Below, one piece after another: positions 7,465 through 33,529 of a stretch of 33,567 nucleotides of DNA (the first letter of the stretch is position 1; each line of letters begins with the position of its first letter). The notes under the pieces were generated by a model. That model was not told where the DNA came from, did not search any database, and saw only the letters and a list, made by a program, of their open reading frames with translations. The stretch covers positions 1 through 33,567 of the forward strand of contig CAYIZA010000005.1 of NCBI GenBank assembly GCA_964367965.1. The letters run 5' to 3'. The stretch comes from an uncultured Christensenella sp. GTDB taxonomy: Bacteria > Bacillota > Clostridia > Christensenellales > UBA1242. Made by a program: the position numbers and the translations under genes.

Positions 7465-8613
7465 CTATATGATCGTCAACTCCATTGAATTAAAATACCT
7501 GATCGCCGGGTAGAACCCGTTTACCAGGTGCCATTGACCTGCGGTAAAGGATGTCATTCCACTTGGCAAACTACCGTTGGCTGTGCTTTTCATTTGAGCA
7601 GTGGAGAGACCCTGAGTGTTTGTAACTGTACCCCCAGGGAATGATCCCGCCGCTCTAGCCATGTCCCCTGTACATTTCGAACTATCAAAGTAGTTAGTGC
7701 TCACATAGGGATTAGTGCCGAAGACATACCCCACTATTCCCCCACGAAAGGCACTACCGATCCCCGTATTACCAAAATCCATTGAGCAGACACTAAAGCA
7801 TTGCTGTATTGTCCCTCCGTCAGTTGCACCAGCAATACCACCCGAATATTTGCTGTTCAGGGTACCTACTGTTCCGCTGTTCCAACAGTATTGGACTACA
7901 ACGCCAGTACGTATACATCCCACAATACCACCTATGTCTCCAGCGTTATTGCCTCCGCTGTTTATAGTTAGATTACCGGTGTTCCAGCATCTCTGTATTG
8001 TTCCATGCCCCACCTGCCCCGCTATGCCGCCCTGAAATTTATTCTTGCCTGCAATAGATGCATTGTTGCTACAGTAGTCAATAATAGCACCACCGTTCAC
8101 ATAGGCCACTAATCCGCCCATATTATACTCGCCAAAACTTCTGGTCTCGGTAACAGAGCCACTTGCAATATGTGTATCTCTAATATACCCACCGTCCAAA
8201 AAGCCAAAAAGCCCAACATGGACCCTACTTGAGGAGCTGATATATAGATTGCTGATTTTATATCCATCGCCGTTGTAATAATAAGAATATGCTTCCCCAG
8301 TATGGTTTATCGGCGTCCATGCCCGGCTGGCTAAATCGATATCCACAGTTTGTCTGTAATATTTGCCGCTCCCGGAGAACGGGTTGGCGCTGATCCAAGC
8401 AAGGTTGGCTGCGCTGGAAATTAAGTAGGGGCTCGCTTCAGTTCCGGCACCGCTAGGCATTGTATTAGTACCATCCCACACCGATGCGGCGGCAAGTCGA
8501 TTGCTGGACTTGTCCAGAGTTGTTAAAGTAGCCATCGGGAAAGCGACCGCCAGCACTGCTATAAGCAAAAGAGGTATAATAAAAGATATGAAGACTTTAA
8601 CTTTGGACTGCAT
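7465..8613 (-). CDS. Secreted GLUG-motif repeat protein (beta-helix/adhesin-like)
   Basis: I trimmed the frame to ATG 8613 (MQSKVKVFISFIIPLLLIAVLAVA, a signal peptide) with AGGAG 7 nt upstream. It has repeated GG(I/L)(A/V)G blocks (GGLVAYVNGG, GGIAGQVGHG, GGIVGCIRTG, GGIAGATDGG, GGIVGYVFG) and an N-terminal SPYLISSAANLAWIS...DIDL module typical of GLUG proteins. Confidence 0.55.
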   Translation of the reverse strand: MQSKVKVFISFIIPLLLIAVLAVAFPMATLTTLDKSSNRLAAASVWDGTNTMPSGAGTEASPYLISSAANLAWISANPFSGSGKYYRQTVDIDLASRAWTPINHTGEAYSYYYNGDGYKISNLYISSSSRVHVGLFGFLDGGYIRDTHIASGSVTETRSFGEYNMGGLVAYVNGGAIIDYCSNNASIAGKNKFQGGIAGQVGHGTIQRCWNTGNLTINSGGNNAGDIGGIVGCIRTGVVVQYCWNSGTVGTLNSKYSGGIAGATDGGTIQQCFSVCSMDFGNTGIGSAFRGGIVGYVFGTNPYVSTNYFDSSKCTGDMARAAGSFPGGTVTNTQGLSTAQMKSTANGSLPSGMTSFTAGQWHLVNGFYPAIRYFNSMELTII

Positions 8614-8631
8614 CCTTTTTCTCCTGTTATT

Positions 8632-8661
8632 AGTATAACAAAAATTCAAATAAAATAGCAA
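8632..8661 (-). promoter_or_regulatory. Sigma-A type promoter for the GLUG-repeat gene
   Basis: On the minus strand: TTGCTA (8656-8661), an 18-nt spacer, then the extended -10 TGtTATACT (-10 at 8632-8637), about 20 nt upstream of the start codon. Confidence 0.5.
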
Positions 8662-19768: not shown

Positions 19769-21283
19769 TTAAGCAGTTTTCAGGGTAATCTTGCCGGTGC
19801 TGCTGATGACAGTAACTTTGTCGTCCTCACTTGCATCGCCGGTAAGGTTCACCTCTTGGAATTCACTGCCACTGTTTTTCGCAGCGCTTTCTAATCCGCC
19901 CAAAAGAATATCAGTGGCGCTCTGTGAAGACCATTTCAGATAAAAGGACTGGACAGGAAACACCACATTGACCGACCCGGTGTTGGACTCCAGTTTGCTG
20001 GTTCCATTGACTTCCGAGAAATTCCCTTTTATACTGCCCCCACCCGGTGAGGTAATGAGTGCATCCACTGTGCCTCTAAGGTTGGTGAATTCTATATCTC
20101 CGTGACGGTTCCTGAATTTCAGATTTATAGCCGGAGCAGTCTCTGCTAAGTTCACGGTGAGATCGCCATAAACCGATTCCAAATCGATGAGTTTAGTCGA
20201 TCCGACTTCCGAGGTGACATTTTTAAGCATTACCGAACCCCGTACTGTAACAGCGGTAACATTGCCGTTGGTTTCGTCAATGGTTATATCTCCGTCGGTT
20301 GCCTCCAGCGTTGCCTCACCGGTCAGTTTGCCGATATTCAGATATCCAGTGCCTCCGTCCAGATTTATACTGCCGCCGATATCACTCATCTTCATAACAC
20401 ACGATTTGACTTTGAGGTTTACATCACCGCTGATATTTCCGACTTCCAAAAGCCCCTTCTCTGCCTCGAAATCAAAATCTCCGTTGATATCACCCAACTG
20501 CAGGTGACAATTGCCTGCCTTTATACTTATCATGGCTGAGTTCGGGTCGGCGCCGGTGCCCAAGTCCTTCATAATAATGTTTCCGAAGCCCTTCACCTCT
20601 ATATCGGCAACGCCGTTGAGTGCTGTTTGGGTTTCAAAATGTCCGGACTGTTTGGTCACCGCCAGGTACTCCTGGATGTATGAATCTTTCAGAACCACCT
20701 TGCCGGTGTCTGAACTAATATTCAGATTTTTCATAGCAATCCGGTTGTTGTGTTCATTATTTATAGTTCCACCCAGCGTTATCTCGCCATGCGAGGTAAT
20801 CAGTTCCAGTGTCTTATCTGCCAGGGTGTTGGGAGCCACTATAAGATTTATTTTAGCATCACCACGCATAAGCCAGCCGTCCGGCTCTGCTATCTCAAAG
20901 GATATTACACTTTTGCCGCTCTCCTCAATAATATTACAGGAGTAAGTTGGACGATCCACCTCGCCCCACACAAAGCCGTTATACTTGTTGGAGTACACCA
21001 CAGTGAGATTGTTATTCACATCCACTAGTTCATCATCGGTATTAACCCGGACTACTATGTCATAGCCCTTGGTGGTTACCCGTATGGTATCGGCATTCTC
21101 ATAGTCTGAGGAAGTGAGTGCTATTTCATCACTGCGAGTCTTGCCATCTCCGTTTATATAGTGCAGCCCGAAATAGTTCACCCCGGGAAAAATCAACAGT
21201 ATAGCGCCCAGGATTATAGCAATCCCCAAAAGGGCGGTGGCAACAATCAAAATAAACTTTGTAATGGTTGCAAAAAATCCCAT
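19769..21283 (-). CDS. Membrane-anchored beta-strand-repeat protein (DUF4097 / putative adhesin-like)
   Basis: 504 aa with an N-terminal TM (FILIVATALLGIAIILGAILLIF). A long run of short G-D/N-(I/V) beta-repeats follows (GDINGDFDFE, GNISGDVNLKV, IGGSINLDGG, TDGDITIDE, VRGSVMLKN), ending in a HGDIEF-type segment. AAGGAG lies upstream. Confidence 0.5.
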   Translation of the reverse strand: MGFFATITKFILIVATALLGIAIILGAILLIFPGVNYFGLHYINGDGKTRSDEIALTSSDYENADTIRVTTKGYDIVVRVNTDDELVDVNNNLTVVYSNKYNGFVWGEVDRPTYSCNIIEESGKSVISFEIAEPDGWLMRGDAKINLIVAPNTLADKTLELITSHGEITLGGTINNEHNNRIAMKNLNISSDTGKVVLKDSYIQEYLAVTKQSGHFETQTALNGVADIEVKGFGNIIMKDLGTGADPNSAMISIKAGNCHLQLGDINGDFDFEAEKGLLEVGNISGDVNLKVKSCVMKMSDIGGSINLDGGTGYLNIGKLTGEATLEATDGDITIDETNGNVTAVTVRGSVMLKNVTSEVGSTKLIDLESVYGDLTVNLAETAPAINLKFRNRHGDIEFTNLRGTVDALITSPGGGSIKGNFSEVNGTSKLESNTGSVNVVFPVQSFYLKWSSQSATDILLGGLESAAKNSGSEFQEVNLTGDASEDDKVTVISSTGKITLKTA

Positions 21284-23326: not shown

Positions 23327-23352
23327 GGACTTTCTACAAACTGGTTGTTTTT

Positions 23353-23381
23353 GCATAAAAATGTAAACTTTCTGCAAAATA
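23353..23381 (+). promoter_or_regulatory. Possible forespore (sigma-G type) promoter of the ger operon
   Basis: GCATA (23353-23357), a 17-nt spacer, then CAAAATA (23375-23381), compared with the sigma-G consensus GHATR / CATxHTA. There is one mismatch in the -10. It sits just upstream of the RBS AAGGAGGGG. Confidence 0.35.
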
Positions 23382-23398
23382 TCAGCAAGGAGGGGAAT

Positions 23399-24850
23399 AT
23401 GCTGACAAAATCGCTAAAAGAAAATGTTGAAACCTTTAAAAAGCTGTTCCACCAGTCTGAGGATTTGATTGTGCGGGAATTTATTTCATTTCAGAACACC
23501 CCGTCTGCACTACTCTATCTGGACAACACTATAGACAAACAGTTTCTCATCAGCGGACTGATTCGCCCGCTGCAGGAGATATCGGTACCCAAACCCGAGA
23601 ATCAGTGTGCTGCAAAATATGCTATGCAAAACATAGTCGGTTTTTCCAACCTATCGGTGGAAAGCGAGGAAACCCCACTGCTGGAGAAAATTACCAACGG
23701 CTATGGTATAGTTATGTTTGAAGGCTGTGATAATGCAATCTCTGTAGACTGTACCAAGTGGGTGATTAGGCTTCCCACTGAGCCGCCCACCAACGCTGTC
23801 CTCAACGGCCCCCGTGAGGGCTTTGTGGAGGATGTGGTCACTAATGTTGCCCTTATGCGAAAGCGGCTAAAAACGCCCGATGTAGTGTTTGACCGAATGG
23901 AGATTGGACGGCGTACCAAGTCACAAGTTCGAATTTGCTACATAAACGGTATTGCCGACCCCAAGATCGTTAAAAACATAAAGGATCGGCTGAAAAAAAT
24001 TGATATAGACGGGATTGTGGACTCCAACTATCTGGTGGATTTCCTAAACGACCGGCGCCATAGTATATTTCACCAGATTGGACGCACTGAAAAACCGGAT
24101 ATCGTCACCGCCAAAGTGCTGGAGGGGCGTGTCGCCATAATGGTGGACGGTTCCCCTATTGTGCTGACCCTGCCCTTTCTGCTGCTGGAGGACTTCCAGA
24201 GCAGTAATGACTACTACACCAGCCCCAGCCGTGCTACCTTTCTGCGTTGGCTTCGGTTCGGCGGCATAGCGCTGGCAACGCTGTTGCCTGGCTGCTATGT
24301 AGCGGTAATAATGTATCACTACAAAATAATCCCCATAAAACTGCTGACCAGCATCTCCAATAGTATTCAGGGAATTCCCTTTTCGCCATTTCTGGAAGTA
24401 CTGTTTATCATCTTTCTCTTTGAGATGCTCTATGAGGCAAGTCTGCGCATGCCCCGGTATCTGGGACTGGCACTCTCAGTCATCGGAGCGCTGATACTCG
24501 GGGACACCGCAGTTAAGTCCGGTCTAGTCAGTCCGCCAGCGGTTATGATAGTAGCCCTGACCGGAGTTATGAGTTACACTGTACCGGAACAGCACCCTCA
24601 GGTGTCATTCCTGAGGATTATATTTACCATAATAGGGGGAGTTCTGGGGCTCTATGGTATAATTATGAGTTCGCTGTTTTTGGTGGGATATCTGGTGAAC
24701 ATCCAGAGTTATGGCGCTCCCTATCTTGCACCGATCGGGCCCTATGTGCCCAGCGACCAGAAAGACGGCTTCATCAAGGGGAATGTCACCAACCAGATTA
24801 CCCGGCCTAAAAGTTTTCCGAACATAAATTCCAGGAGGCTTAAAAAATGA
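23399..24850 (+). CDS. Spore germination receptor subunit A (GerAA/GerKA family)
   Basis: I trimmed the frame to ATG 23399, which has AAGGAGGGG upstream. The product is 483 aa. A soluble N-domain with NGPREGFVEDVVTNVALMRKRLKTP is followed by a C-terminal membrane domain of about 5 TM. Confidence 0.9.
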   Translation: MLTKSLKENVETFKKLFHQSEDLIVREFISFQNTPSALLYLDNTIDKQFLISGLIRPLQEISVPKPENQCAAKYAMQNIVGFSNLSVESEETPLLEKITNGYGIVMFEGCDNAISVDCTKWVIRLPTEPPTNAVLNGPREGFVEDVVTNVALMRKRLKTPDVVFDRMEIGRRTKSQVRICYINGIADPKIVKNIKDRLKKIDIDGIVDSNYLVDFLNDRRHSIFHQIGRTEKPDIVTAKVLEGRVAIMVDGSPIVLTLPFLLLEDFQSSNDYYTSPSRATFLRWLRFGGIALATLLPGCYVAVIMYHYKIIPIKLLTSISNSIQGIPFSPFLEVLFIIFLFEMLYEASLRMPRYLGLALSVIGALILGDTAVKSGLVSPPAVMIVALTGVMSYTVPEQHPQVSFLRIIFTIIGGVLGLYGIIMSSLFLVGYLVNIQSYGAPYLAPIGPYVPSDQKDGFIKGNVTNQITRPKSFPNINSRRLKK

Positions 24851-25935
24851 AAACGCTGACCTCCCGTCAATTTATCCTGATATGGCTTTTCCTTTTTGTG
24901 GGCACCAAACTTCTGACGCTGCAGCCCTTTGTTCACGAAAGCGCAGGCAAGGATTCTATCTGGTCTATGGTGCTTTCTGTCGGGCTGGATTTATTGATTT
25001 TATTCTTCTGTGTTTGGCTGATGAAGCGCAATCCGCACACCACCTTTTTTCAACTTCTTAAAAGGTCGCTGGGCGAGGTTGTTTCCCGTGTGGTTTTGCT
25101 ACTGCTCTTCGTCTTTATATTACTGAAAGCGTTGATGCTCTACCAGGAGACATACTCGCTCTTCTTACAGTTGCTCTACGAGGATTTGCCAATACTGGTC
25201 TATGTGATGACGGCTTTTTTTGTGACCGGGTACTTCGCCATCCGGGGCATCCGGGTGATCGGCAGAACACTGGAGATTTTGTGGGTTTTTATATTGATTG
25301 GGGTTGTGACATGTGCTATAACGGCGCTCTCCAACCTGGATTTTAAGTACATTTTGCCCTTTTTCGAGGACGGCTTTACCCAGACCCTGGATGGAGTTAA
25401 AAACTCAATATTTTACTACGGAAACGGTATAATATTGCTCTGTTTTATGGGTCGAGTGGACTTTAATAAGAAATTTCATCTTAAACTATGGCTCAGCACT
25501 TTGGCAGGAACGGTTCTGGTGTTGGGGCTCAGCCTGCTATTCTTTGTTATCTACGGGCCGACTGTCGTTTATATTGAGTTCACTATCTCAGACCTGCCAC
25601 AGTATAGTTATATCGTTTCCGACCTGGGACGCCTCAACTGGCTGAGTGTGGTAGTCTGTACCATTGCACTGTTCCTGGTGAGTTGCATCTTTCTATATGC
25701 ACTGGGACTGCTGGGGCGCTGGATTACAGGATTCCGTAAACCCTTTTTTCCAGTAGGCGCATCGCTAGTGACCATTGCAGTCCTGGCTCTTATCAACGAG
25801 TTTAGCATTACACTTATGGAGGAACAGATAAACAACTCCTGGAACTTTATAATTGGTGGGGTTCTTATTCTATACACCCTGCTTTGTCTATGCTACCTCA
25901 TTTTTAAAAGGAGGAGAAAATGGATAACGCCATAA
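24847..25935 (+). CDS. Spore germination receptor subunit B (GerAB, spore permease/APC-like)
   Basis: 362-aa protein with about 10 TM segments. It has an ATGA overlap with subunit A, with AGGAGG upstream. Confidence 0.88.
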   Translation: MKTLTSRQFILIWLFLFVGTKLLTLQPFVHESAGKDSIWSMVLSVGLDLLILFFCVWLMKRNPHTTFFQLLKRSLGEVVSRVVLLLLFVFILLKALMLYQETYSLFLQLLYEDLPILVYVMTAFFVTGYFAIRGIRVIGRTLEILWVFILIGVVTCAITALSNLDFKYILPFFEDGFTQTLDGVKNSIFYYGNGIILLCFMGRVDFNKKFHLKLWLSTLAGTVLVLGLSLLFFVIYGPTVVYIEFTISDLPQYSYIVSDLGRLNWLSVVVCTIALFLVSCIFLYALGLLGRWITGFRKPFFPVGASLVTIAVLALINEFSITLMEEQINNSWNFIIGGVLILYTLLCLCYLIFKRRRKWITP

Positions 25936-27161
25936 AATATCGGATTGTAGTCTGGGTGGTGGTGATTTTTCTGCTGATATTTTTACCCTCGGCAGTCATC
26001 CGGGACAGCCAGGCTCAGACCGAGGGACTGGTCTCCGGACTGGGTATTGATGCCTCCCCGGAAGGGCTTGAGGTTTCAGTACAGTTGCTTATCCCCCAGC
26101 CCAGTACCGGCTATGCCCCGAGGACTATTATATCCTCTGCCGAGAGTTCCAGCATATTGGACTGCATCCGTTCCATTGAACTGAAGATTGGTCAGCGGCT
26201 GGGGTTGGCTCACTGCTATGTTGTAATTGTGGGCGACGAAATCTGCGACCGAAACCTAGCCGAGGTTTTAGACTTTCTGGTTCGCAGTAATATTATGGGA
26301 AACAACACCGCCCTGTTTCATACTGAGGGCACTGCCAAAGAACTGTTGGAGGTGACCTCGCAACTTAGTGCCGGCGATGTCAACAATTTGCAGAACCTCA
26401 CTAAGTACGACAAGGAAAACTATGCTGCTGCCAGTCTCAGCCTGATTGATTTCTATAAGCAATACCTCTCGCCGGCATCCTGTTCGGCTATAAACACAGT
26501 AGGAATCAACCAGACCGCTATGGAAAAAGGTCAGTCCGGTGGTGGTGGCGGTGGCAGTGAGGAGGACTCTTCTTCTGGGGCGAGTGACAGTGCGGGCTTA
26601 GGATATTCCGCCTCTGAGAATGTCCTGGATGACCGGGGCAAGGTGGCAATCTTTAAAAAGGGAGTTCGGGTGGAAATCCTGGAAAAAGAGGATGTGGAGA
26701 AGATATCACGATTAGACCCGACATCTCAGCGGACTTTTATCGACCTGGAAAACTTCACCGACCAAAAACTTAACAACGCAAAGATCAGCCTGGTTCAGAC
26801 TGGCAAAAACCTTTCCTTCAACCCAAAACTGGTGAACGGCATCCCCGTTTTGGAAGTTAATACAACTCTGATTACCCGAATTGAAAGCATAGAGAATGAT
26901 GACGGTTTCATCTACACCAGTCATAGCAATTACTACACCCCGGCATTTGTGGAGACAGTCCGGAACAAGGTCAAGCAGGATATCGCCGATGCTATCGCTA
27001 AGATGAAAGAGGGTAATTATGATATTATTGATGTTTATTCCCTCTTTAACATAAGTAACTCAGTAGGGTGGAAGCAGTTCCTGGCAACCCTGGAAAACAC
27101 TGAAGACTACCTGCAATGGCTGGAGGTCTATGTCAATGTCAGCGTGATAAATAGAGAGTAA
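25920..27161 (+). CDS. Spore germination receptor subunit C (Ger(x)C family), apparently without a lipobox Cys
   Basis: 413 aa overlapping subunit B by 16 nt, with AGGAGGAG upstream. The N-terminal hydrophobic anchor IVVWVVVIFLLIFLPSAVI contains no cysteine. GLGIDAS is the typical start of the GerC fold, and a GerAC-like C-terminal domain is present. There is a low-complexity insert, GQSGGGGGGSEEDSSSGASDSAG. Confidence 0.85.
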   Translation: MDNAIKYRIVVWVVVIFLLIFLPSAVIRDSQAQTEGLVSGLGIDASPEGLEVSVQLLIPQPSTGYAPRTIISSAESSSILDCIRSIELKIGQRLGLAHCYVVIVGDEICDRNLAEVLDFLVRSNIMGNNTALFHTEGTAKELLEVTSQLSAGDVNNLQNLTKYDKENYAAASLSLIDFYKQYLSPASCSAINTVGINQTAMEKGQSGGGGGGSEEDSSSGASDSAGLGYSASENVLDDRGKVAIFKKGVRVEILEKEDVEKISRLDPTSQRTFIDLENFTDQKLNNAKISLVQTGKNLSFNPKLVNGIPVLEVNTTLITRIESIENDDGFIYTSHSNYYTPAFVETVRNKVKQDIADAIAKMKEGNYDIIDVYSLFNISNSVGWKQFLATLENTEDYLQWLEVYVNVSVINRE

Positions 27162-27232: not shown

Positions 27233-27328
27233 GATTATCTCCCCGCTACACAATCTCTGGCTTAGACTTTTATGAGGGAGTAAAAAATGAATAGATTATC
27301 TCGCTGCTACAAACTCTACGGCTTAGAT
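27233..27328. repeat. Two copies of a 35-nt repeat (period 61 nt)
   Basis: GATTATCTCCCCGCTACACAATCTCTGGCTTAGAC (27233-27267) and GATTATCTCGCTGCTACAAACTCTACGGCTTAGAT (27294-27328) share 28 of 35 positions. Confidence 0.8.
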
Positions 27329-27361: not shown

Positions 27362-27650
27362 AAAAAAACCTCATCAGCCAGGTGGAAAAGAAAGTTGAAC
27401 TGCCGTTGGCTCAGACCATAGGAAAATCAAAAAAACCTGGTCAGGCAAGTAAAAAAATGCTTGAATGATACCTGGTGCAGACCATTGGGAAGTTCAAACA
27501 CTGAATCATCAGACAAGTAAAAAAGAAAGTTGAACTGCCGTTGACTCAGACCATTGTGAAGTTCAAAAAACCTGGTCAGGCAGGTTAAAAAAGTTGAACT
27601 GCAATTTGCACAGACCATAGGAAAATCAAACACCACCTCATCAGACAAAT
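27362..27650. repeat. Tandem array, about 4.5 copies of a 64-69-nt unit
   Basis: The anchor CAGACCAT occurs at 27412, 27478, 27547 and 27611. GTTGAAC occurs at 27394, 27529 and 27593, with CTTGAAT at 27460. Each unit runs A-run / short palindrome / A-run / GTTGAACTGCCGTTGRCTCAGACCAT / WGGRAARTYC. The copies have diverged. Confidence 0.85.
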
Positions 27651-27678
27651 AAAAAAAGAGGGGCACACCCTCTTTTTT
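27651..27678 (-). terminator. Bidirectional terminator of the Rho-paralog gene
   Basis: The hairpin AGAGGG-GCACA-CCCTCT (27657-27673) is flanked by A7 and T6. On the minus strand it follows the stop codon (27677-27679) directly and is followed by U7. Confidence 0.75.
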
Positions 27679-29083
27679 ATATAATCTTATTGTAGATGCC
27701 GGCGATTTCCACCAGCGTTTTGTCTAAAGTTTCGGCTCGGATTTTCTGCCCTAGTTCCAGTTCCTTCTTTTCCAGCAGTGCTGCTGCGTTATCGGTGTGG
27801 CAGGTTGACAGCACAAAACATTTTGCACCGGAGATAAACAGTTGCCGATCCAGTGTTATGCGACAGTTGCAGAGGTCGCTGAGTTGGGATATTAGCCGTT
27901 TCTCATCTTCGCCCACATCATCCCGCACTGTGCCTATAAAAGTTATGCTGCCGGCAGTCTCGGTGTTTCTTGCAATTGCCATCATCTTTTTAAGCGCCAC
28001 AATAGCGGATACCTCAATGCCAAACTCCTGAGTGGTCTTAGGCAGGCAATAACTGTATGCCCGCACCACTGAAAAGAGGTCATCCACCATAAGTGCAACA
28101 TCCTCGCCCTTTTCGCAGAGCACCTTTGCCCTTTCTAGTGCAAGTTCCAGTATATACATCTGCCGAAACGGAATCATATCGAACGCTGAGAAAGCGTATT
28201 CCACCTCGGTGTTGCTGAAGTCCAGTTTGTCCTCAGGGCGCTTGTCCACTGCCACAAAGATGACCTTGACCTTTTCGCTGTCCAGTGTCTTTGCCATTTC
28301 ATACAGCAGAGTAGTCTTGCCGGAGCCTCTCTCCCCTCTCATAATCACTCGCTGACCTCTGCCGATAGGACACAGATATTTAGTAAATATCAGCATTGGG
28401 TTTTTCCAGAGCGGAAATGCCTGGTTTGGCGCTATACTCTCCAGGTCACTGAAGTTTTTCCGCTGCAGTTGTGTAGGCTCCACCCCGTTCAGGGTGACCA
28501 CTGCACTCAGAATCTCTATCTTTTCACATTGTGAAAAAGTACCGCGTACCAAATCCCCGGAACGCAAATTGTAGTGCTTGACCATACTTGGAGACACGGC
28601 AATTATGTTAGCATCATTTATCTTGTTTAAGCCGTCTATATGCAGAGTACCCCAGCCGTTTGGCTCAATCAGAACAATTCCCTCAGCACGGGGCAACGAT
28701 TCATCCACCACAAATTGCTGTTCCAGCACATATTCTGGCATACTTACTTTGAGCATACCGCCCAGCCCCTCAGGTTCTCGAACCGGTCGCACCCAACTGC
28801 CCTGCTCCCACGAAGTTGCCGCCTCGGACTTTTCCTCTTTCTCCAGATTTTGCTTATCCCAGGCTCCACTGTATCCGGTAAAAATCTTGGGCGGTCTGCC
28901 CTTTTTATTTTTCGGCACAAAAGGTTCCAGTTGTCCGCGAACTACCTGCAGAATCTTCTCAATCAAGTGGTTTTTTTTGTAGGTAGTAGGAAGATGCACC
29001 CCTACATTTCTGGCAATCTCACGAAGTTGAAAAATTCCATACCTTTGCAGTTTTTCCTCAGAGAATTCTTGAATGCTAAGCAT
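27677..29083 (-). CDS. Highly divergent Rho-family hexameric-helicase paralog
   Basis: 468 aa. It has a Rho_N-like N-terminus (FQLREIARNVGVHLPTTYKKNHLIEKIL). The OB/CSD segment GWGTLHIDG...IIAVSPSMVKHYNLRSGDLVRG parallels E. coli GFGFLR...[21 protein letters not shown]. The P-loop region CPIGRGQRVIMRGERGSGKTTLL parallels SPIGRGQRGLIVAPPKAGKTMLL. Further matches are VDKRPED (for IDERPEE), MVDDLFSVVRAYS and ARNTETAGSITFIGTV. Confidence 0.75.
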   Translation of the reverse strand: MLSIQEFSEEKLQRYGIFQLREIARNVGVHLPTTYKKNHLIEKILQVVRGQLEPFVPKNKKGRPPKIFTGYSGAWDKQNLEKEEKSEAATSWEQGSWVRPVREPEGLGGMLKVSMPEYVLEQQFVVDESLPRAEGIVLIEPNGWGTLHIDGLNKINDANIIAVSPSMVKHYNLRSGDLVRGTFSQCEKIEILSAVVTLNGVEPTQLQRKNFSDLESIAPNQAFPLWKNPMLIFTKYLCPIGRGQRVIMRGERGSGKTTLLYEMAKTLDSEKVKVIFVAVDKRPEDKLDFSNTEVEYAFSAFDMIPFRQMYILELALERAKVLCEKGEDVALMVDDLFSVVRAYSYCLPKTTQEFGIEVSAIVALKKMMAIARNTETAGSITFIGTVRDDVGEDEKRLISQLSDLCNCRITLDRQLFISGAKCFVLSTCHTDNAAALLEKKELELGQKIRAETLDKTLVEIAGIYNKII

Positions 29084-29113: not shown

Positions 29114-29142
29114 ATCATACCACAATATTTTAAAAAAGTAAA
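29114..29142 (-). promoter_or_regulatory. Own promoter of the Rho-paralog gene
   Basis: On the minus strand: TTTACT (29137-29142), a 17-nt spacer, then the extended -10 TGgTATGAT (-10 at 29114-29119). It lies downstream of the ypeB terminator hairpin. Confidence 0.45.
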
Positions 29143-29170: not shown

Positions 29171-29209
29171 TTTTCTAAATAAAGAACATAGAGCCTGAAG
29201 GCTCTATGT
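29171..29209 (-). terminator. Terminator after sleB-ypeB
   Basis: The perfect 10-bp hairpin ACATAGAGCC-TGAA-GGCTCTATGT (29186-29209) is followed on the minus strand by the U-rich UCUUUAUUU. It lies about 80 nt after the ypeB stop. Confidence 0.6.
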
Positions 29210-29287: not shown

Positions 29288-30616
29288 TTACATAAGCATT
29301 TCGCCGTCGTCGGTGAGGATGACCTTCATCACATTGAGGTCTTCGCCGGTGTTGGCATCAATGTAGATGTAGTAGATATTGCCCTCTTTTATGCATTTGA
29401 ATTCCCAGGCAAGTTTTTCGCCGGAGTATTCGCCAGGAATAACGGTCAGTTTTTCAGACAACACATCGAGGAAGGAATCCAATCCGCTCTTTGCCACTGC
29501 CTGTTTAATACCTGGGGTCAGTTCGGTTCGGGTAGTATGGTTAAAAGCCCAACTGCGAGCCTCCCAGCCCACCACTGCTCCGTCTGCCCGTGAGATTTTA
29601 ACTTTAATCATATCCGGATAGATAATCACGCCGTCCTGCACATAGACCAAATTGCAGTACACAAAGCCCTCACAGTCGGTACTCCAGACTACTTTGGCAT
29701 CTTTAATGCCCACCAGGGTGGCAAATTCCTCAGCGAGTATCTCGCACTCCCTGATAGTCTTATTGCTGGCACCGGCATCTATTCCGCTCCCAAGTTGCAG
29801 CAACAGACCGCCCTGCTTAGTCACCTGCGCATAGGCATCATCGCCGTCCTTTTCCAGTATAAAGTTCCAGGTCTCAAAGTCGCCGCCGGCAGTTTCGCCG
29901 TTGGCGGTGATATCCCAGCCCTCAAACCACTTTTTTAACAACAGTTCTGCCTCAGTGGCGCTGACAGTGTTGGAGCCCAGACCTTTGATTGCTTTTTGTT
30001 CTAGCGACTCGCTGAACGGGCCGTCATATATCAGTTGTGGGTAGTCCACTATGTCGTTGGAAAAACTCTGCCACTCGCCGCTGAATTTGTTGGAGTTGGA
30101 AAGTGGGTCGCCGATATTATCCACAATTGAGTAGCCGGCATTTATCATATTAGCCATACGGTTCAGTTCAAATTTAACTTTGACACAGGAATCATAGAGT
30201 TCACTCAGTTGGTCGTATTCGTCCAGTGTAATGTCCTGACCATTTGCCATTTTTTCCCGCAGTGTGTGAGTGTAGCCGCCCAACTGGTTTACAAACTTCA
30301 GCGTCTTGTCTATGGAGTTATGTTCCAGCGGCAATGAGGACAGTTTGTCCTGGGCGCTGTTGCAGAGGTTTACCACCTCGGCAAGATATTTTTCCTTCAT
30401 AGTATTCTTGGTGACAACTGAAAACTTACTGAGTTTGTTTTCCATATTGTTGACATCGTCGGATAGCGCATAGAAACTGTTCTGATAGAGTGAATTCAAC
30501 TGCTGCCTATAGTCTGCTACTGTGGAATTGGTGAGTCCCACCACCATTCCGGTAACTGCCACGCTCACCGCAACAATAGCCGCACATATGACAATGGTTA
30601 AAGAAAATTTATTCAT
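29288..30616 (-). CDS. ypeB: Germination protein YpeB
   Basis: 442 aa with an N-terminal TM. It parallels B. subtilis YpeB at several blocks: YQNSFYALSDDVNNMENKL, NSAQDKLSSLPL, and the C-terminal PepSY-like blocks IYPDMIKVKISRADGAVVGWEARSW and LAWEFKCIKEGNIYYIYIDANTGE. It lies 12 nt after sleB, with GGGAGG upstream. Confidence 0.88.
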   Translation of the reverse strand: MNKFSLTIVICAAIVAVSVAVTGMVVGLTNSTVADYRQQLNSLYQNSFYALSDDVNNMENKLSKFSVVTKNTMKEKYLAEVVNLCNSAQDKLSSLPLEHNSIDKTLKFVNQLGGYTHTLREKMANGQDITLDEYDQLSELYDSCVKVKFELNRMANMINAGYSIVDNIGDPLSNSNKFSGEWQSFSNDIVDYPQLIYDGPFSESLEQKAIKGLGSNTVSATEAELLLKKWFEGWDITANGETAGGDFETWNFILEKDGDDAYAQVTKQGGLLLQLGSGIDAGASNKTIRECEILAEEFATLVGIKDAKVVWSTDCEGFVYCNLVYVQDGVIIYPDMIKVKISRADGAVVGWEARSWAFNHTTRTELTPGIKQAVAKSGLDSFLDVLSEKLTVIPGEYSGEKLAWEFKCIKEGNIYYIYIDANTGEDLNVMKVILTDDGEMLM

Positions 30617-30628
30617 TTTTGACCTCCC

Positions 30629-31300
30629 TTAAATTGCAAAGTTGTGTTTGCCGATTTTAACAACTATTTGCCTCGACCATATCCACGAACTGGTAGCCGT
30701 GGCTGGATTGTAGTAGTAGATTGCCCCATAGGAAGGGTCCCAGCCGTTCAGAGCATCTCGTGCGGCGTTGTAAGCGGTGGTGTTCGGCTCCAGATTTATC
30801 TGACCGTCACTGACCGCAGTAAAGGCATAGGGCTGATAGATTACCCCAGAAATGGTATTGGGAAATTTAGAACTTTTGACCCTGTTTAAGATTACAGCAC
30901 CCACTGCCACCTGACCGGCATATGGCTCACCCCGTGCCTCAGCGTGTATGCACTTTGCCAGCAAGTAGAGGTCGTTGTTAGTCTGAGAGGTCAGACTCAT
31001 CCCGAGCGCAGCGGCTGTCTTGCTTCCCACAATGCCGTCGGCAACCAACTTGTTTTTGCGCTGAAAGGCAACCACGGCGGCACGAGTCTTGGAACCATAA
31101 ATTCCATCGACAGCACCAGTGTAGTAACCCCAGTTTTTGAGTTTAGTCTGCACTGTGCGAGTCTGTGTGCTGGTAAGAGCAGCCTCTACTGAGACCTGCT
31201 CTTGATATGTAGTCTGTGCCGTAGTATTCCCCACCACTCCGAGTGAGGCGATTAGCATCAAACATAGCGAAAGTGTAACTATTTTCAATGATTTCTTCAC
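30629..31300 (-). CDS. sleB: Spore cortex-lytic enzyme SleB (PG_binding_1 + Hydrolase_2)
   Basis: I moved the start to GTG 31300 (VKKSLKIVTLSLCLMLIASLG, a clean signal peptide), which has AAGGGG 7 nt upstream and lies just past the spoIIR stop. The ORF-track TTG at 31342 would overlap spoIIR. It carries the PG-binding repeat KLKNWGYYTGAVDGIYGSKTRAAVVAFQ and the catalytic block CIHAEARGEPYAGQVAVGAVILNRV. Confidence 0.88.
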   Translation of the reverse strand: MKKSLKIVTLSLCLMLIASLGVVGNTTAQTTYQEQVSVEAALTSTQTRTVQTKLKNWGYYTGAVDGIYGSKTRAAVVAFQRKNKLVADGIVGSKTAAALGMSLTSQTNNDLYLLAKCIHAEARGEPYAGQVAVGAVILNRVKSSKFPNTISGVIYQPYAFTAVSDGQINLEPNTTAYNAARDALNGWDPSYGAIYYYNPATATSSWIWSRQIVVKIGKHNFAI

Positions 31301-31304
31301 TTTT

Positions 31305-31865
31305 TTACCCCTTATTAAAGAATTTTTTGATGATTTCTGCAAGTTGTGATTTGTATACTACCCCCTCTCCGCTGGAATCGGCAATGTTCACAAAGCACAT
31401 CGGAGGGTAGGCAATGCACCACCAGTTGTCTCCGGCTGCCGCCCCCAGGTTGATGATAAGAGCATCGTAGATATCCCCCTCCAGTGTCAGGTCGGCATAG
31501 TTGCGGGTGGGGAATTGTTCGCTGGTAATGCTAGCACTACTGGTATAGCCAAAACCGTTCTGAGCCAGCACCCGGTTGGCAGTTTCGGTCACCAGCGCCA
31601 AGTTGTTGTCCATAATTTCCATAGCCTTTTGCTTGGTGTCCGCCTCCGCAAAGAGTGGAGCAAGCACACTGACCACCTCGTCTTTAACCTTGAGTTTGAC
31701 CTGCTGGTCTGCCGATGAATTACTGTTTGCCCTGATATGTATTCTCAAAAAGTCATCGGCATGCAAGGCGTTGTTGTCCACTGCGGAGCCCGGCAGAAAA
31801 AGCAATCCCCCCAGGATAGCGAACGCTAAAATTACCACTGCAAACACACCCTTCCCGTTCTCCAT
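31305..31865 (-). CDS. spoIIR: Stage II sporulation protein R
   Basis: 186 aa with a signal/anchor segment. It shows LRIHIRANSNSSADQQVKLKVKDEV and GDNWWCIAYPPMCF, which are hallmark SpoIIR motifs. GAGGGGG lies upstream. Confidence 0.88.
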   Translation of the reverse strand: MENGKGVFAVVILAFAILGGLLFLPGSAVDNNALHADDFLRIHIRANSNSSADQQVKLKVKDEVVSVLAPLFAEADTKQKAMEIMDNNLALVTETANRVLAQNGFGYTSSASITSEQFPTRNYADLTLEGDIYDALIINLGAAAGDNWWCIAYPPMCFVNIADSSGEGVVYKSQLAEIIKKFFNKG

Positions 31866-31923
31866 AAGTCCCCCTCATCGTCGTTATTATCTACTCAAAT
31901 TTAGTTTCTAAACATAAAAAATG

Positions 31924-31962
31924 CAAAAAAAGCACCAAATTTTCATATTTTGATGCTTTTTT
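31924..31962 (-). terminator. Terminator after the SipL-like gene
   Basis: The imperfect hairpin GCACCAAAT-TTTCATA-TTTTGATGC (31932-31956) is flanked by A7 and T6. On the minus strand it is followed by U7. Confidence 0.55.
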
Positions 31963-31987
31963 ACCCGGTTTTTTTGCAAATTGGAAA

Positions 31988-33529
31988 TCAGCCTTTTAAA
32001 ATCTTCTGACGGTATACAACTACTTGAGTTGGTTTTGCGATTGGAAAAATCAGGTCGGGGTTCTGCAACAACAGCATATCCGGATTGACCGAAAGTGCCT
32101 TTGCTATATCCCAGAGTTCGTTAGCCTCGGACACCACATAGACGCCCATCGCTGCTCCCCTTGACTTGACTGGCTCGCCGAGAGTCACTCCGCTGACTAC
32201 CACATCCTCTCTTTCACGGGTTGCCGTCACCTGGATGTTCAGGTCTGCCAGAATGTCTATCTCCTTGGCTTTCTTGTTGCGTGCCTCCAGTTCTTTAACC
32301 ACCACATTGGCGCTGACCTGATCGCCATCTAGCAGCCCGTCACATTTGACATTTATCTCAAACGGAATCTCTGCCTGAATGGACTGCAAGGTCTGCTCTT
32401 CATCATCCAGCAGATAGACTACATTAGCCAACACTGTGCCTGTTGCGGTGACCGTTTCGTCTGCCGCAGTCACAGTACCGGGCAGCACAAAAGCGGAGGA
32501 TGTGGCAAGCACACGGTCTATCCTTGCAGTGTCCTGTGCCAGTACAATATTGCCGTCCACCTTTTCAGAAGCGAACTTTTGGCAGACCAGCGTCTGATTG
32601 TTAAAACTCTCCAGTTTCATCTTGATTTCATTGTCCGGACAGAAGGCATCCACCACCGTTTCGAATTCTCGCTCTGCCAACACATAGGCGTTAGCCCGGA
32701 ATTTATTCTTCAGTACCACCACTCCTTTGGAACTGTTTAACTCTCCGTGCACCTCAAAGTTATTACAGGAGGTATAGAGACTGGCTCGGACTTCCTGTCC
32801 GGCGGATACTCCAGTTGCTAAAATCTCCTGATTGAAGTCAGTGGTATAACTTTGGCTCTTAAGTTTCGGCTTTTCATCGCTGGTCAGATAGACCAGGTTA
32901 GTCACCACCTCACCCTTTAGGGTTATCAAATCAGTGGAGACCGAAGTTCCGGTCAGCACACCATAACTCTCGGTCAGCAAAATCTTCGATGCTGAAGACG
33001 GCGAGTCTATTTCGGTGGTCAGTTCAAATGTCTCTGAAACAGCACTGGTGATGTCACTGCACTTTACCACACCGAATTTTTGATTTGCGGGCGCTGCATT
33101 CTGTACAAACTTTATAGACTGCGGCACCAGCATAACATACTCCACCCCGATTAAACTTACCAGACTGATTCCGCTGTCGGTCAGCCCGATATTTTCCACG
33201 CCCAGGTTTTTTGCGGTGACAATAACCTTTGTTTCGGCAGTCAGCGAGGAGGAATTAAAACTGGTGGAAAAATTAGCCTGTCCGGTTATCGCCAGGATTT
33301 CCCCCTCTTCAGACAGCGCCAGTGCCTGCACGCAGACATGCCCCTCCGCTACCACACTGCCAGCATTTTGCACCACGCTTTCCACGCACGGCAAACCCTT
33401 CACCGACAGCACCTTAACCAGTTTTTCACCTGTTGAACTTGTCAGACTAATAGCAGTCTGCGTCTTCTCTTCCCCTATTTTAGTGGTGTACCTTGTTTGA
33501 ATTTCCTTTATTTGTGGTTCCAAAGCCAT
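31988..33529 (-). CDS. DUF3794-like repeat protein with a C-terminal LysM-like domain (SipL/SpoVID-like spore-coat morphogenesis candidate)
   Basis: 513 aa, beta-rich and repetitive. The C-terminus VYVVSEANELWDIAKALSVNPDMLLLQNPDLIFPIAKPTQVVVY looks like a LysM domain. Size and architecture match clostridial SipL. It sits next to spoIIR, with GGGAGGGGG upstream. Confidence 0.5.
   Translation of the reverse strand: MALEPQIKEIQTRYTTKIGEEKTQTAISLTSSTGEKLVKVLSVKGLPCVESVVQNAGSVVAEGHVCVQALALSEEGEILAITGQANFSTSFNSSSLTAETKVIVTAKNLGVENIGLTDSGISLVSLIGVEYVMLVPQSIKFVQNAAPANQKFGVVKCSDITSAVSETFELTTEIDSPSSASKILLTESYGVLTGTSVSTDLITLKGEVVTNLVYLTSDEKPKLKSQSYTTDFNQEILATGVSAGQEVRASLYTSCNNFEVHGELNSSKGVVVLKNKFRANAYVLAEREFETVVDAFCPDNEIKMKLESFNNQTLVCQKFASEKVDGNIVLAQDTARIDRVLATSSAFVLPGTVTAADETVTATGTVLANVVYLLDDEEQTLQSIQAEIPFEINVKCDGLLDGDQVSANVVVKELEARNKKAKEIDILADLNIQVTATREREDVVVSGVTLGEPVKSRGAAMGVYVVSEANELWDIAKALSVNPDMLLLQNPDLIFPIAKPTQVVVYRQKILKG

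What the first reader, a model, noticed from the sequence alone, without database searches (positions are those of the whole stretch)
27677..29083. Stand-alone, highly diverged Rho paralog with altered catalytic and RNA-translocation motifs, embedded between sleB-ypeB and gerABC
The domain order is unmistakably Rho: Rho_N, OB/CSD with VSPSMVKHYNLRSGD, PIGRGQR, then a P-loop. Housekeeping Rho is normally very conserved, but here most functional signatures have drifted. The glutamate of the DERPEE motif aligns with Lys (DKRPED). The aromatic of IYVSPS aligns with Ala (IIAVSPS). The Q-loop region (SGKVLTGGVD in E. coli) reads KTTQEFGIEVS. The R-loop region (TGSKMD) reads DVGEDE. About 85 residues of K/E-rich insert separate Rho_N from the OB fold. 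The gene has its own extended -10 promoter and its own terminator, and is flanked by spore germination genes and by the repeat island. This suggests a specialised, possibly ATPase-impaired, RNA-binding paralog rather than the general termination factor.
Basis: partly seen in the sequence, partly recalled or inferred. Interest (0 to 1): 0.7.

Follow-up and report, generated by a model that had tools for sequence, protein, structure and literature searches.

The report
Motor-dead Rho in the ancestral rho slot
This gene descends from the bacterial transcription terminator Rho and keeps Rho's shape and its original chromosomal position, but it has lost the residues that drive the RNA motor, so in a group of uncultured gut Clostridia the Rho scaffold is probably kept for some other, non-motor job.

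Summary
ORF 27677-29083 (-) encodes a 468-aa protein with a confident Rho fold, but it scores far below the curated Rho cut-offs. The catalytic Glu is Lys, the Arg finger and RIFPAID are gone, the Q and R loops are unrecognisable, and the aromatic residues of the primary RNA site are replaced. It belongs to a small family (about 27 clusters at 90% identity) inside a larger single clade of degenerate Rho-like genes from uncultured Christensenellales-type Clostridia. The gene is under purifying selection (dN/dS 0.09-0.23). Constraint has moved from the motor to the N-terminal Rho_N helices and a KKGRPPK linker.

The "paralog recruited among germination genes" reading is not supported as stated. 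In related genomes the canonical housekeeping rho lies in the same block: veg-sipL-spoIIR-sleB-ypeB-prs-LactB3-rho-fbaA. The window gene therefore sits in the ancestral rho slot, and its neighbours are inherited. Its promoter is sigma-A-like and conserved.

I could not determine whether a canonical Rho also exists elsewhere in these genomes. My co-occurrence scan found none, but its sensitivity for canonical Rho was low. No such motor-dead Rho clade turned up in the literature I searched. I call it a new variant of a known kind.

The parts
27677..29083 (-). CDS of the degenerate Rho-fold protein (468 aa)
28961..29038 (-). Rho_N helix-hairpin core (GIFQLREIARNVGVHLPTTYKKNHLI, residues 16-41). 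One of the two most conserved parts of the family (Rho_N 0.73; basic linker 0.76).
28886..28924 (-). Invariant basic linker PFVPKNKKGRPPK (residues 54-66), a GRP motif that resembles an AT-hook. Also present as (R/K)RGRPPK in canonical Rho of related lineages.
28694..28885 (-). Poorly conserved, mostly disordered insert between the linker and the OB fold. Contains the conserved SW..G motif at 28799-28813.
28469..28693 (-). OB fold (Rho_RNA_bind) with primary RNA-site residues replaced: GWGTLH 28640-28657, IIAVSPS 28586-28606, CEKIEIL 28508-28528
28310..28369 (-). PIGRGQR (28349-28369) and an intact Walker A GERGSGKTT (28310-28336). Walker A is kept in only 11 of 27 family clusters.
28229..28249 (-). 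VDKRPED: the catalytic Glu (E. coli E211) is Lys; the Arg valve is kept
28154..28183 (-). Family-specific conserved motif FDMIPFRQMY
28007..28042 (-). Q-loop equivalent PKTTQEFGIEVS: not conserved, with indels (family identity 0.20 against 0.71 in canonical Rho)
27896..27919 (-). R-loop equivalent DVGEDEKR: not conserved (0.22 against 0.82)
27788..27838 (-). Region replacing KRVFPAID...SGTR: FISGAKCFVLSTCHTDN. The Arg finger and the adenine-stacking Phe are absent.
29114..29142 (-). Sigma-A-type promoter TTTACT-17-(TG)TATGAT, conserved in orthologous loci
27652..27678 (-). Intrinsic terminator of the gene
29186..29209 (-). Intrinsic terminator of ypeB, which separates the gene from the sleB-ypeB unit
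29288..33529 (-). Ancestral syntenic block upstream: sipL-like 31988-33529, spoIIR 31305-31865, sleB 30629-31342, ypeB 29288-30616
23345..27161 (+). Converging gerAA-gerAB-gerAC operon. It flanks the gene in the core family only, not in canonical relatives.

Best explanation
The gene is the positional descendant of the housekeeping rho gene in a clade of uncultured, spore-forming Christensenellales-type Clostridia. In the ancestor of that clade Rho stopped being selected as an ATP-driven RNA translocase. Different sublineages then lost different motor elements. The core family, including the window, lost the catalytic Glu, the Arg finger, the Q/R loops and the primary RNA-site aromatics, and in 16 of 27 clusters also Walker A.

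The protein keeps the Rho fold and is still under purifying selection. That selection is now strongest on the N-terminal Rho_N helix-hairpin and the adjacent KKGRPPK basic linker.

Shown: fold, motif loss, single clade, position, selection, promoter type.

Inferred: it works as a non-motor protein that binds nucleic acid (or RNA polymerase) through the N-terminal module, probably as an oligomer, since PIGxGQR and much of the RecA-like core are retained. In the window's subclade the intact P-loop suggests nucleotide binding without hydrolysis, as a conformational switch. Its neighbourhood with sleB-ypeB is inherited and says nothing about function. I lean (about 55:45) to it being the only Rho homologue in these genomes rather than one of two.
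For: - Fold.
- Below curated Rho cut-offs.
- Motif loss across the family.
- Single clade of all degenerate genes, nested among Christensenellales-type canonical Rho; no second Rho gene in any locus.
- Same slot as canonical rho. L101/L102/L103 read veg-sipL-ispE-spoIIR-sleB-ypeB-prs-LactB3-rho-fbaA, and L063 reads ypeB-prs-LactB3-rho. Orthology of the block to the window: SpoIIR 43%, SleB 53%, YpeB 30% identity.
- Position of degenerate genes. They follow sleB-ypeB in every core-family locus that extends upstream, and also in much more divergent subclades (YpeB 26-40% identical), or they follow spoIIR.
- Different subclades lost different elements.
- Purifying selection, dN/dS 0.09-0.23.
- Constraint is inverted relative to canonical Rho. 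Family against canonical identity: Rho_N 0.73 against 0.36, linker 0.76 against 0.19, Q loop 0.20 against 0.71, R loop 0.22 against 0.82.
- Conserved sigma-A-like promoter and own terminators.
- P0083, a Rho in the LactB3 housekeeping slot, already shows Arg finger R->M, so decay in place does happen in this group.
- No genome with both types among 46, and none by contig-length or accession matching.
Against: - The co-occurrence scan is weak. The N-terminal DNA signature recognises only 6 of 90 close canonical relatives, so a canonical copy could be present and unseen.
- A large canonical Rho group (P0040-like) sits at a third, non-ancestral locus (HI0933-rho-methylase-spoIIE). It is the nearest canonical group to the degenerate clade in the NJ tree. 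This is what a relocated, co-resident canonical copy would look like.
- prs and LactB3, which accompany canonical rho everywhere else, are missing next to the degenerate genes.
- The tree is a simple NJ tree with long branches.
- No biochemical data. Oligomeric state and ligand are inferred only.
- All genomes are MAGs.
Confidence: 0.6

Rival explanations
1. True paralog. The ancestor duplicated rho. A canonical copy, relocated (for example to the HI0933-rho-methylase locus or with prs-LactB3), still performs termination in the same genomes. The copy left in the old slot was freed to lose the motor and take on a new, N-terminus-centred role, possibly including mixed rings with, or antagonism of, the canonical Rho.
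For: - P0040-like canonical Rho lies at a non-ancestral, conserved locus in ruminant and gut 'Clostridia bacterium' MAGs.
- It is nearest to the degenerate clade in the tree.
- Its linker GKLKPCKPTNKGAPKK resembles the family's.
- prs-LactB3 are absent next to the degenerate genes.
- Duplication followed by a new function is the usual route to an inactive enzyme copy (general knowledge).
- The scan that found no co-occurrence is insensitive.
Against: - No genome, contig or accession range with both types was found in any test.
- The degenerate gene, not the canonical one, holds the ancestral slot.
- Rho in the LactB3 slot can itself start to decay (P0083).
- Published second Rho copies keep their catalytic residues and lack Rho_N, the opposite pattern (PMC11347177).
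Confidence: 0.35
2. Sporulation or germination specialist. The protein acts with SleB/YpeB or the GerA receptor, or controls their expression, in the spore.
For: - Adjacency to sleB-ypeB is kept across very divergent members.
- All hosts carry sporulation genes.
- Housekeeping Rho affects sporulation in B. subtilis (title and abstract of PMC11599450).
Against: - The adjacency is ancestral for canonical rho too.
- The gene is separated from ypeB by a terminator and has a conserved sigma-A-type promoter, with no sigma F/G/E/K-like elements seen.
- The P0026/P0027 subclade has left this context.
- gerA is adjacent only in the core family.
Confidence: 0.12
3. Still the working termination factor. 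This would be lineage-specific drift with compensating residues, so Rho-dependent termination persists with unusual chemistry.
For: - The window protein keeps Walker A, the Walker B Asp, the Arg valve and PIGRGQR.
- M. tuberculosis Rho functions despite poor NTPase and helicase activity (abstract of PMC8828861).
Against: - Catalytic Glu, Arg finger, adenine-stacking motif, Q and R loops and primary RNA-site aromatics are all missing.
- Walker A is dispensable in 16 of 27 family clusters.
- The Q and R loops evolve almost freely, identity 0.20-0.22.
Confidence: 0.05
4. A decaying relic with no function.
For: Massive loss of catalytic motifs; variable C-terminal truncations.
Against: - Intact ORFs across members only 28-54% identical.
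- dN/dS 0.09-0.23.
- 53 invariant positions, and an N-terminus more conserved than in canonical Rho.
- Conserved promoter.
Confidence: 0.03

Closest known systems
Transcription termination factor Rho (TIGR00767 / NF006886; E. coli, T. maritima and M. tuberculosis structures)
   Same: Domain order, fold (TM up to 0.85), PIGxGQR, the Walker B Asp, and an N-terminal insertion like other Clostridial and Actinobacterial Rho. It occupies the chromosomal slot of housekeeping rho in related genomes.
   Different: It scores half the equivalog cut-off or less. The catalytic Glu, Arg finger, RIFPAID, Q loop, R loop and primary RNA-site aromatics are lost, and Walker A is optional in the family. LactB3, the usual upstream partner, is absent. 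Conservation is concentrated in the N-terminus instead of the motor.
[quoted passage not shown]
   Same: Non-standard Rho-family proteins; hetero-oligomers have been proposed for them.
   Different: Those copies lack the N-terminal domain and keep the catalytic residues and the bicyclomycin pocket. This family does the reverse: it keeps and over-conserves Rho_N and loses the catalytic residues. Different phyla. The NF041509 score is 131.6 against a cut-off of 628.
Canonical Rho of Christensenellales (P0276/L101, L063; the 548-aa P0034 group)
   Same: Same N-terminal signature (G/S-I/L-F-Q/E-L-R...GV..PT..K..LI), same GE(I/V)xP...K(R/K)GRPPK linker, and the same veg-sipL-spoIIR-sleB-ypeB block upstream.
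   Different: These keep every motor motif (only D210G in GERPEE), are preceded by prs-LactB3 and followed by fbaA, carry longer N-rich inserts, and are about 33% identical to the window protein.
B. subtilis Rho as a regulator of sporulation (PMC11599450)
   Same: A Rho-family protein in a spore-former. From my own knowledge, rho lies in the chromosomal neighbourhood of spoIIR and fbaA in B. subtilis.
   Different: B. subtilis Rho is a canonical active motor. No inactive version has been described there.

Membership tests
Rho transcription termination factor | Rho_N + OB (Rho_RNA_bind) + RecA-type ATPase architecture and fold | tested here: met
   Pfam; AF2 model; top 50 PDB fold matches are all Rho
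Rho transcription termination factor | Score at or above the curated equivalog cut-off (NF006886 315 bits; TIGR00767 509 bits) | tested here: not met
   157.4 and 148.8 bits
Rho transcription termination factor | Walker A P-loop (GKT) | tested here: met
   GERGSGKTT in the window protein, but kept in only 11 of 27 family clusters
Rho transcription termination factor | Catalytic glutamate (E. coli E211 in DERPEE) | tested here: not met
   Lys (VDKRPED); Lys in 25 of 27 family clusters
Rho transcription termination factor | Arginine finger (R366, SGTR) and the KRVFPAID adenine-binding motif | tested here: not met
   The aligned region reads ...CFVLSTCHTDN; family consensus S.T(D/E)N
Rho transcription termination factor | Q loop and R loop (secondary RNA-binding and translocation site) | tested here: not met
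   PKTTQEFGIEVS and DVGEDEKR; family identity 0.20 and 0.22 against 0.71 and 0.82 in canonical Rho; indels
Rho transcription termination factor | Primary RNA-binding-site residues (F64, R66, Y80, Y110) | tested here: not met
   GWGTLH, AVSPS, EKI
Rho transcription termination factor | Orthologous genomic position | tested here: met
   Same slot downstream of sipL-spoIIR-sleB-ypeB as canonical rho in L101-L103 and L063
Rho transcription termination factor | RNA-dependent ATPase, helicase and termination activity; hexamer formation | not testable with these tools
   Needs biochemistry or multimer modelling
Short-form second Rho (NF041509 / 'Group B') | Lacks the N-terminal domain; catalytic residues conserved; score at least 628 bits | tested here: not met
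   Has a highly conserved Rho_N, the catalytic residues are lost, score 131.6 bits
Short-form second Rho (NF041509 / 'Group B') | Co-resident with a full canonical Rho in the same genome | tested here: inconclusive
   None found, but detection sensitivity is low

The most novel reading that the evidence does not exclude
A whole, anciently diverged clade of gut and rumen Christensenellales-type spore-formers has no working Rho. Its only rho gene, still in the ancestral slot, has been converted into an ATPase-dead protein. That protein is kept by strong selection on its N-terminal helix-hairpin and GRP basic linker. This would be a new, motor-independent function of the Rho scaffold (for example binding of nucleic acid or RNA polymerase), and a natural experiment in living without Rho-dependent termination.
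Probability: 0.4. Interest if true: 0.75.

Novelty: new variant of a known kind. Interest (0 to 1): 0.6.

Why it matters
Rho is regarded as one of the most conserved bacterial motors. Surveys of its diversity describe added domains and extra copies, but those keep the catalytic core (PMC11347177).

Here a clade of Rho-fold proteins under purifying selection has dismantled the motor and over-conserved the N-terminus. That points to a motor-independent activity of the Rho scaffold, which may also exist, hidden, in canonical Rho.

It also bears on annotation. Such genes are currently labelled 'hypothetical' or 'Rho_N domain protein' and could easily be mis-called Rho, which would wrongly imply Rho-dependent termination in abundant gut and rumen Christensenellales.

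Finally it is a cautionary case for guilt-by-association. The germination-gene neighbourhood is inherited from housekeeping rho, not acquired.

Tried and rejected
1. Co-residence of a canonical rho with the family.
- (a) I scanned genome contigs with a degenerate Rho_N DNA pattern that hits both types (validated on 21 loci). It gave 49 loci, 18 genomes with canonical only and about 28 with degenerate only, none with both. Calibration then showed the signature fits only 6 of 90 canonical relatives, so I do not use this as strong evidence.
- (b) The same pattern on JGI metagenome contigs: 23 loci, no contig with two Rho genes.
- (c) Homolog searches with the L063 Rho and with P0040, matching 'longest contig' lengths to known family-bearing contigs: no match.
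- (d) Accession-number proximity to MBR1925534.1 and MBQ8761851.1 for 20 canonical clusters: no match.
- (e) Look-ups of P0034, P0045, P0040, P0083 and P0462: different samples and assemblies.

2. Remnants of prs, LactB3, DUF1934, obg or fbaA in the window and the long family loci: none.

3. Exact look-up of the window protein's contig: not on record.

4. Rfam scan of the window: nothing.

5. Literature: no occurrence of 'Rho paralog', and no motor-dead Rho mentioned in the passages I retrieved from PMC11347177 and PMC12360218.

6. Sporulation-sigma promoter upstream: I looked by eye in five aligned orthologous upstream regions and saw only a sigma-A-type -35 / extended -10.

Full report
**1. 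Observation**

The ORF at 27677-29083 on the minus strand encodes 468 residues.

- Pfam finds ATP-synt_ab (2.4e-17), Rho_RNA_bind (29 bits, cut-off 27) and a sub-threshold Rho_N.
- NCBIfam places it nearest the Rho equivalogs but far below their cut-offs: 157 against 315 bits, and 149 against 509 bits.
- The best PDB sequence match is T. maritima Rho, 6e-35.
- An AlphaFold2 model built on 72 sequences is confident (pLDDT 87.8, pTM 0.78). Residues 60-84 and 104-118 are disordered.
- Its 50 best structural matches are all Rho, with TM up to 0.85 and rmsd about 2.5 A over about 355 columns.

**2. Motifs**

I aligned the protein with solved and canonical Rho proteins. My hand-typed E. coli sequence was used only as a ruler.

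| E. coli Rho feature | Window protein |
|---|---|
| DERPEE (catalytic Glu E211) | DKRPED, Glu -> Lys |
| Q loop | PKTTQEFGIEVS, with a 2-residue deletion |
| R loop | DVGEDEKR |
| KRVFPAID...SGTR (Arg finger R366) | ...CFVLSTCHTDN |
| GFGFLR | GWGTLH |
| YVSPS | AVSPS |
| ERY | EKI |

The window protein retains PIGRGQR, Walker A (GERGSGKTT), the Walker B Asp and the Arg valve.

**3. Family**

A search of 5.8 billion proteins found 27 clusters (P0001-P0027, 28-54% identical, 199 bits or more). Canonical Rho follows at about 150 bits and 30% identity. Where sources give a name, members are called 'hypothetical' or 'Rho_N domain-containing' and come from uncultured Clostridia MAGs.

- Lys replaces the catalytic Glu in 25 of 27 clusters.
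- The Arg finger and RIFPAID are missing in all.
- Walker A survives in only 11 of 27.
- Family-specific invariant motifs are GIFQLR..AR..GVHLPT, PFV..KKGRP.K, SW..G, FD..PF.Q.Y and CN.HI.

An exhaustive profile search of 1.84 billion representatives shows about 10 core clusters at 50% identity (681-334 bits). Below them is a tier of further degenerate Rho-like proteins, then the canonical plateau.

**4. Selection**

- dN/dS between moderately diverged orthologues is 0.09-0.23, so the gene is functional.
- Constraint is inverted relative to canonical Rho. The two sets differ in phylogenetic breadth, so only the within-set profiles should be compared.

| Region | Mean pairwise identity, family | Mean pairwise identity, canonical Rho |
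|---|---|---|
| Rho_N | 0.73 | 0.36 |
| Basic linker | 0.76 | 0.19 |
| P-loop region | 0.53 | 0.88 |
| Q loop | 0.20 | 0.71 |
| R loop | 0.22 | 0.82 |

**5. Context**

In the window and in members only 36-54% identical, the order is veg-sipL-spoIIR-sleB-ypeB-[gene]-(gerAC-gerAB-gerAA converging)-aaRS. A terminator follows ypeB. The gene then has a conserved sigma-A-type promoter (-35 TTTAC[AT], 17 bp, extended -10) and its own terminator. The most distant members (P0026) lie elsewhere.

**6. The slot is the housekeeping rho slot**

A degenerate DNA pattern for the shared Rho_N signature hit every family locus and every canonical P0034-type locus once. It returned 49 loci from GTDB species genomes and 23 from JGI metagenomes. 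I classified each gene and its neighbours.

- Canonical genes always follow a Lactamase_B_3 gene, in the module prs-(DUF1934)-LactB3-rho.
- Degenerate genes follow sleB-ypeB, in the core family and also in much more divergent subclades where YpeB is only 26-40% identical.
- A further degenerate group follows spoIIR directly.

In L063 the order is ypeB-prs-LactB3-canonical rho. In an 860-kb Christensenellales contig (L101), and independently in L102 and L103, it is spo0A-veg-sipL-ispE-spoIIR-sleB-ypeB-prs-LactB3-rho-fbaA-...-rpoBC. The block is orthologous to the window's: SpoIIR 43%, SleB 53%, YpeB 30% identity, and the canonical Rho is 33% identical to the window protein over 437 residues.

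So the window gene occupies the ancestral rho position. The germination-gene neighbourhood is inherited from housekeeping rho.

**7. Phylogeny**

An NJ tree on 438 columns places all degenerate genes in one long-branched clade, nested among the Christensenellales-type canonical Rhos. No locus contains a second Rho gene.

Subclades lost different elements:

- The core family lost the catalytic Glu and the Arg finger.
- The P0134-like group keeps DERPED and S.TRK but has no Walker A.
- The spoIIR-adjacent group lost almost everything.

This fits relaxation of motor selection at the base of the clade.

**8. Ortholog or paralog?**

No genome, contig or accession range with both a degenerate and a canonical Rho was found. 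However, the signature recognises only 6 of 90 close canonical relatives, so this negative result is weak.

Evidence pointing toward a co-resident canonical copy:

- A large canonical group (P0040-like) sits at a third conserved locus, gyrBA-ychF-argS-HAD-HI0933-rho-methylase-spoIIE.
- That group is the nearest canonical neighbour of the degenerate clade in the tree.

Evidence pointing toward decay in place:

- P0083, a Rho in the LactB3 slot, already has its Arg finger mutated.

I put the sole converted ortholog at about 55% and a true paralog at about 35-45%.

**9. Mechanism (inferred)**

A non-motor Rho scaffold. The over-conserved Rho_N helix-hairpin plus the KKGRPPK GRP motif is the likely binding surface for nucleic acid or RNA polymerase. 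The motif is also present in canonical relatives. The retained PIGxGQR and RecA-like core suggest oligomerisation. The conserved P-loop in the window's subclade suggests nucleotide binding without hydrolysis.

**10. Comparison with the literature**

The 2024 survey of Rho diversity reports extra copies in 116 of 2,730 genomes. [quoted passage not shown] That is the opposite pattern from this family. No paper in the library used the phrase 'Rho paralog', and neither Rho paper I searched by keyword (PMC11347177, PMC12360218) mentioned a motor-dead Rho in the passages retrieved. I therefore rate this a new variant of a known kind, of moderate to high interest.

Noticed in passing
window 27363-27656: Tandem array of about 4 copies of a 64-69-nt unit between the gene's terminator and the end of gerAC. 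The core is CAGACCAT..GAA..TCAAA plus GTTGAACTGCCGTTG. It has no Rfam match and is absent from all other fetched loci; orthologous intergenic regions are only about 40-90 bp. Nature unknown (small repeat element or sRNA array?).
   Followed up: partly
window 27233-27327: Two 34-nt direct copies (82% identical), GATTATCTC.C.GCTACA.A.TCT..GGCTTAGA, 61 nt apart, next to the tandem array.
   Followed up: no
L053, L078, L086, L087, L100 (P0134-like); L022, L029, L035, L050, L051, L097: Other degenerate Rho-like subclades in the same slot. One keeps DERPED and the Arg finger but has no Walker A at all. Another (377-413 aa, directly after spoIIR) has lost nearly every Rho motif.
   Followed up: partly
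L054, L056, L066 (MAGs CAKVHQ01, CATZIR01, CATKXA01): Small ORFs of 97-183 aa that carry only the Rho_N signature, co-resident with a degenerate Rho-like gene in the same MAG. They may be stand-alone Rho_N proteins.
   Followed up: no
L006-L018, L023, L028, L030, L031, L043, L048, L055, L063, L067, L068, L072-L076, L081, L085, L088, L091, L098, L101-L103: A Lactamase_B_3 (MBL-fold) gene immediately precedes canonical rho in these Clostridial loci, often with prs and DUF1934 upstream. This conserved LactB3-rho pairing has unknown meaning.
   Followed up: partly
L072-L077 (P0083, 39 member sequences): A Rho in the LactB3-rho-obg housekeeping slot with its Arg finger changed (SGTMK) and GIFPATD in place of RIFPAID. 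It looks like an early stage of motor decay in place.
   Followed up: no
L063, L101-L103 (P0273, P0276): Otherwise canonical Rho proteins that read GERPEE instead of DERPEE (D210G, a bicyclomycin-pocket residue).
   Followed up: no
window 19769-21283 (-) and 7465-8661 (-): Two long ORFs (504 and 398 aa) with no Pfam match. The 504-aa ORF is syntenic with a weakly DUF4097-like gene in related loci.
   Followed up: no
window 26537-26559 (in gerAC): A short GGT/GGC repeat encodes a Gly/Ser-rich insert (GQSGGGGGGSEEDSSSGASDSAGLG) in GerAC.
   Followed up: no
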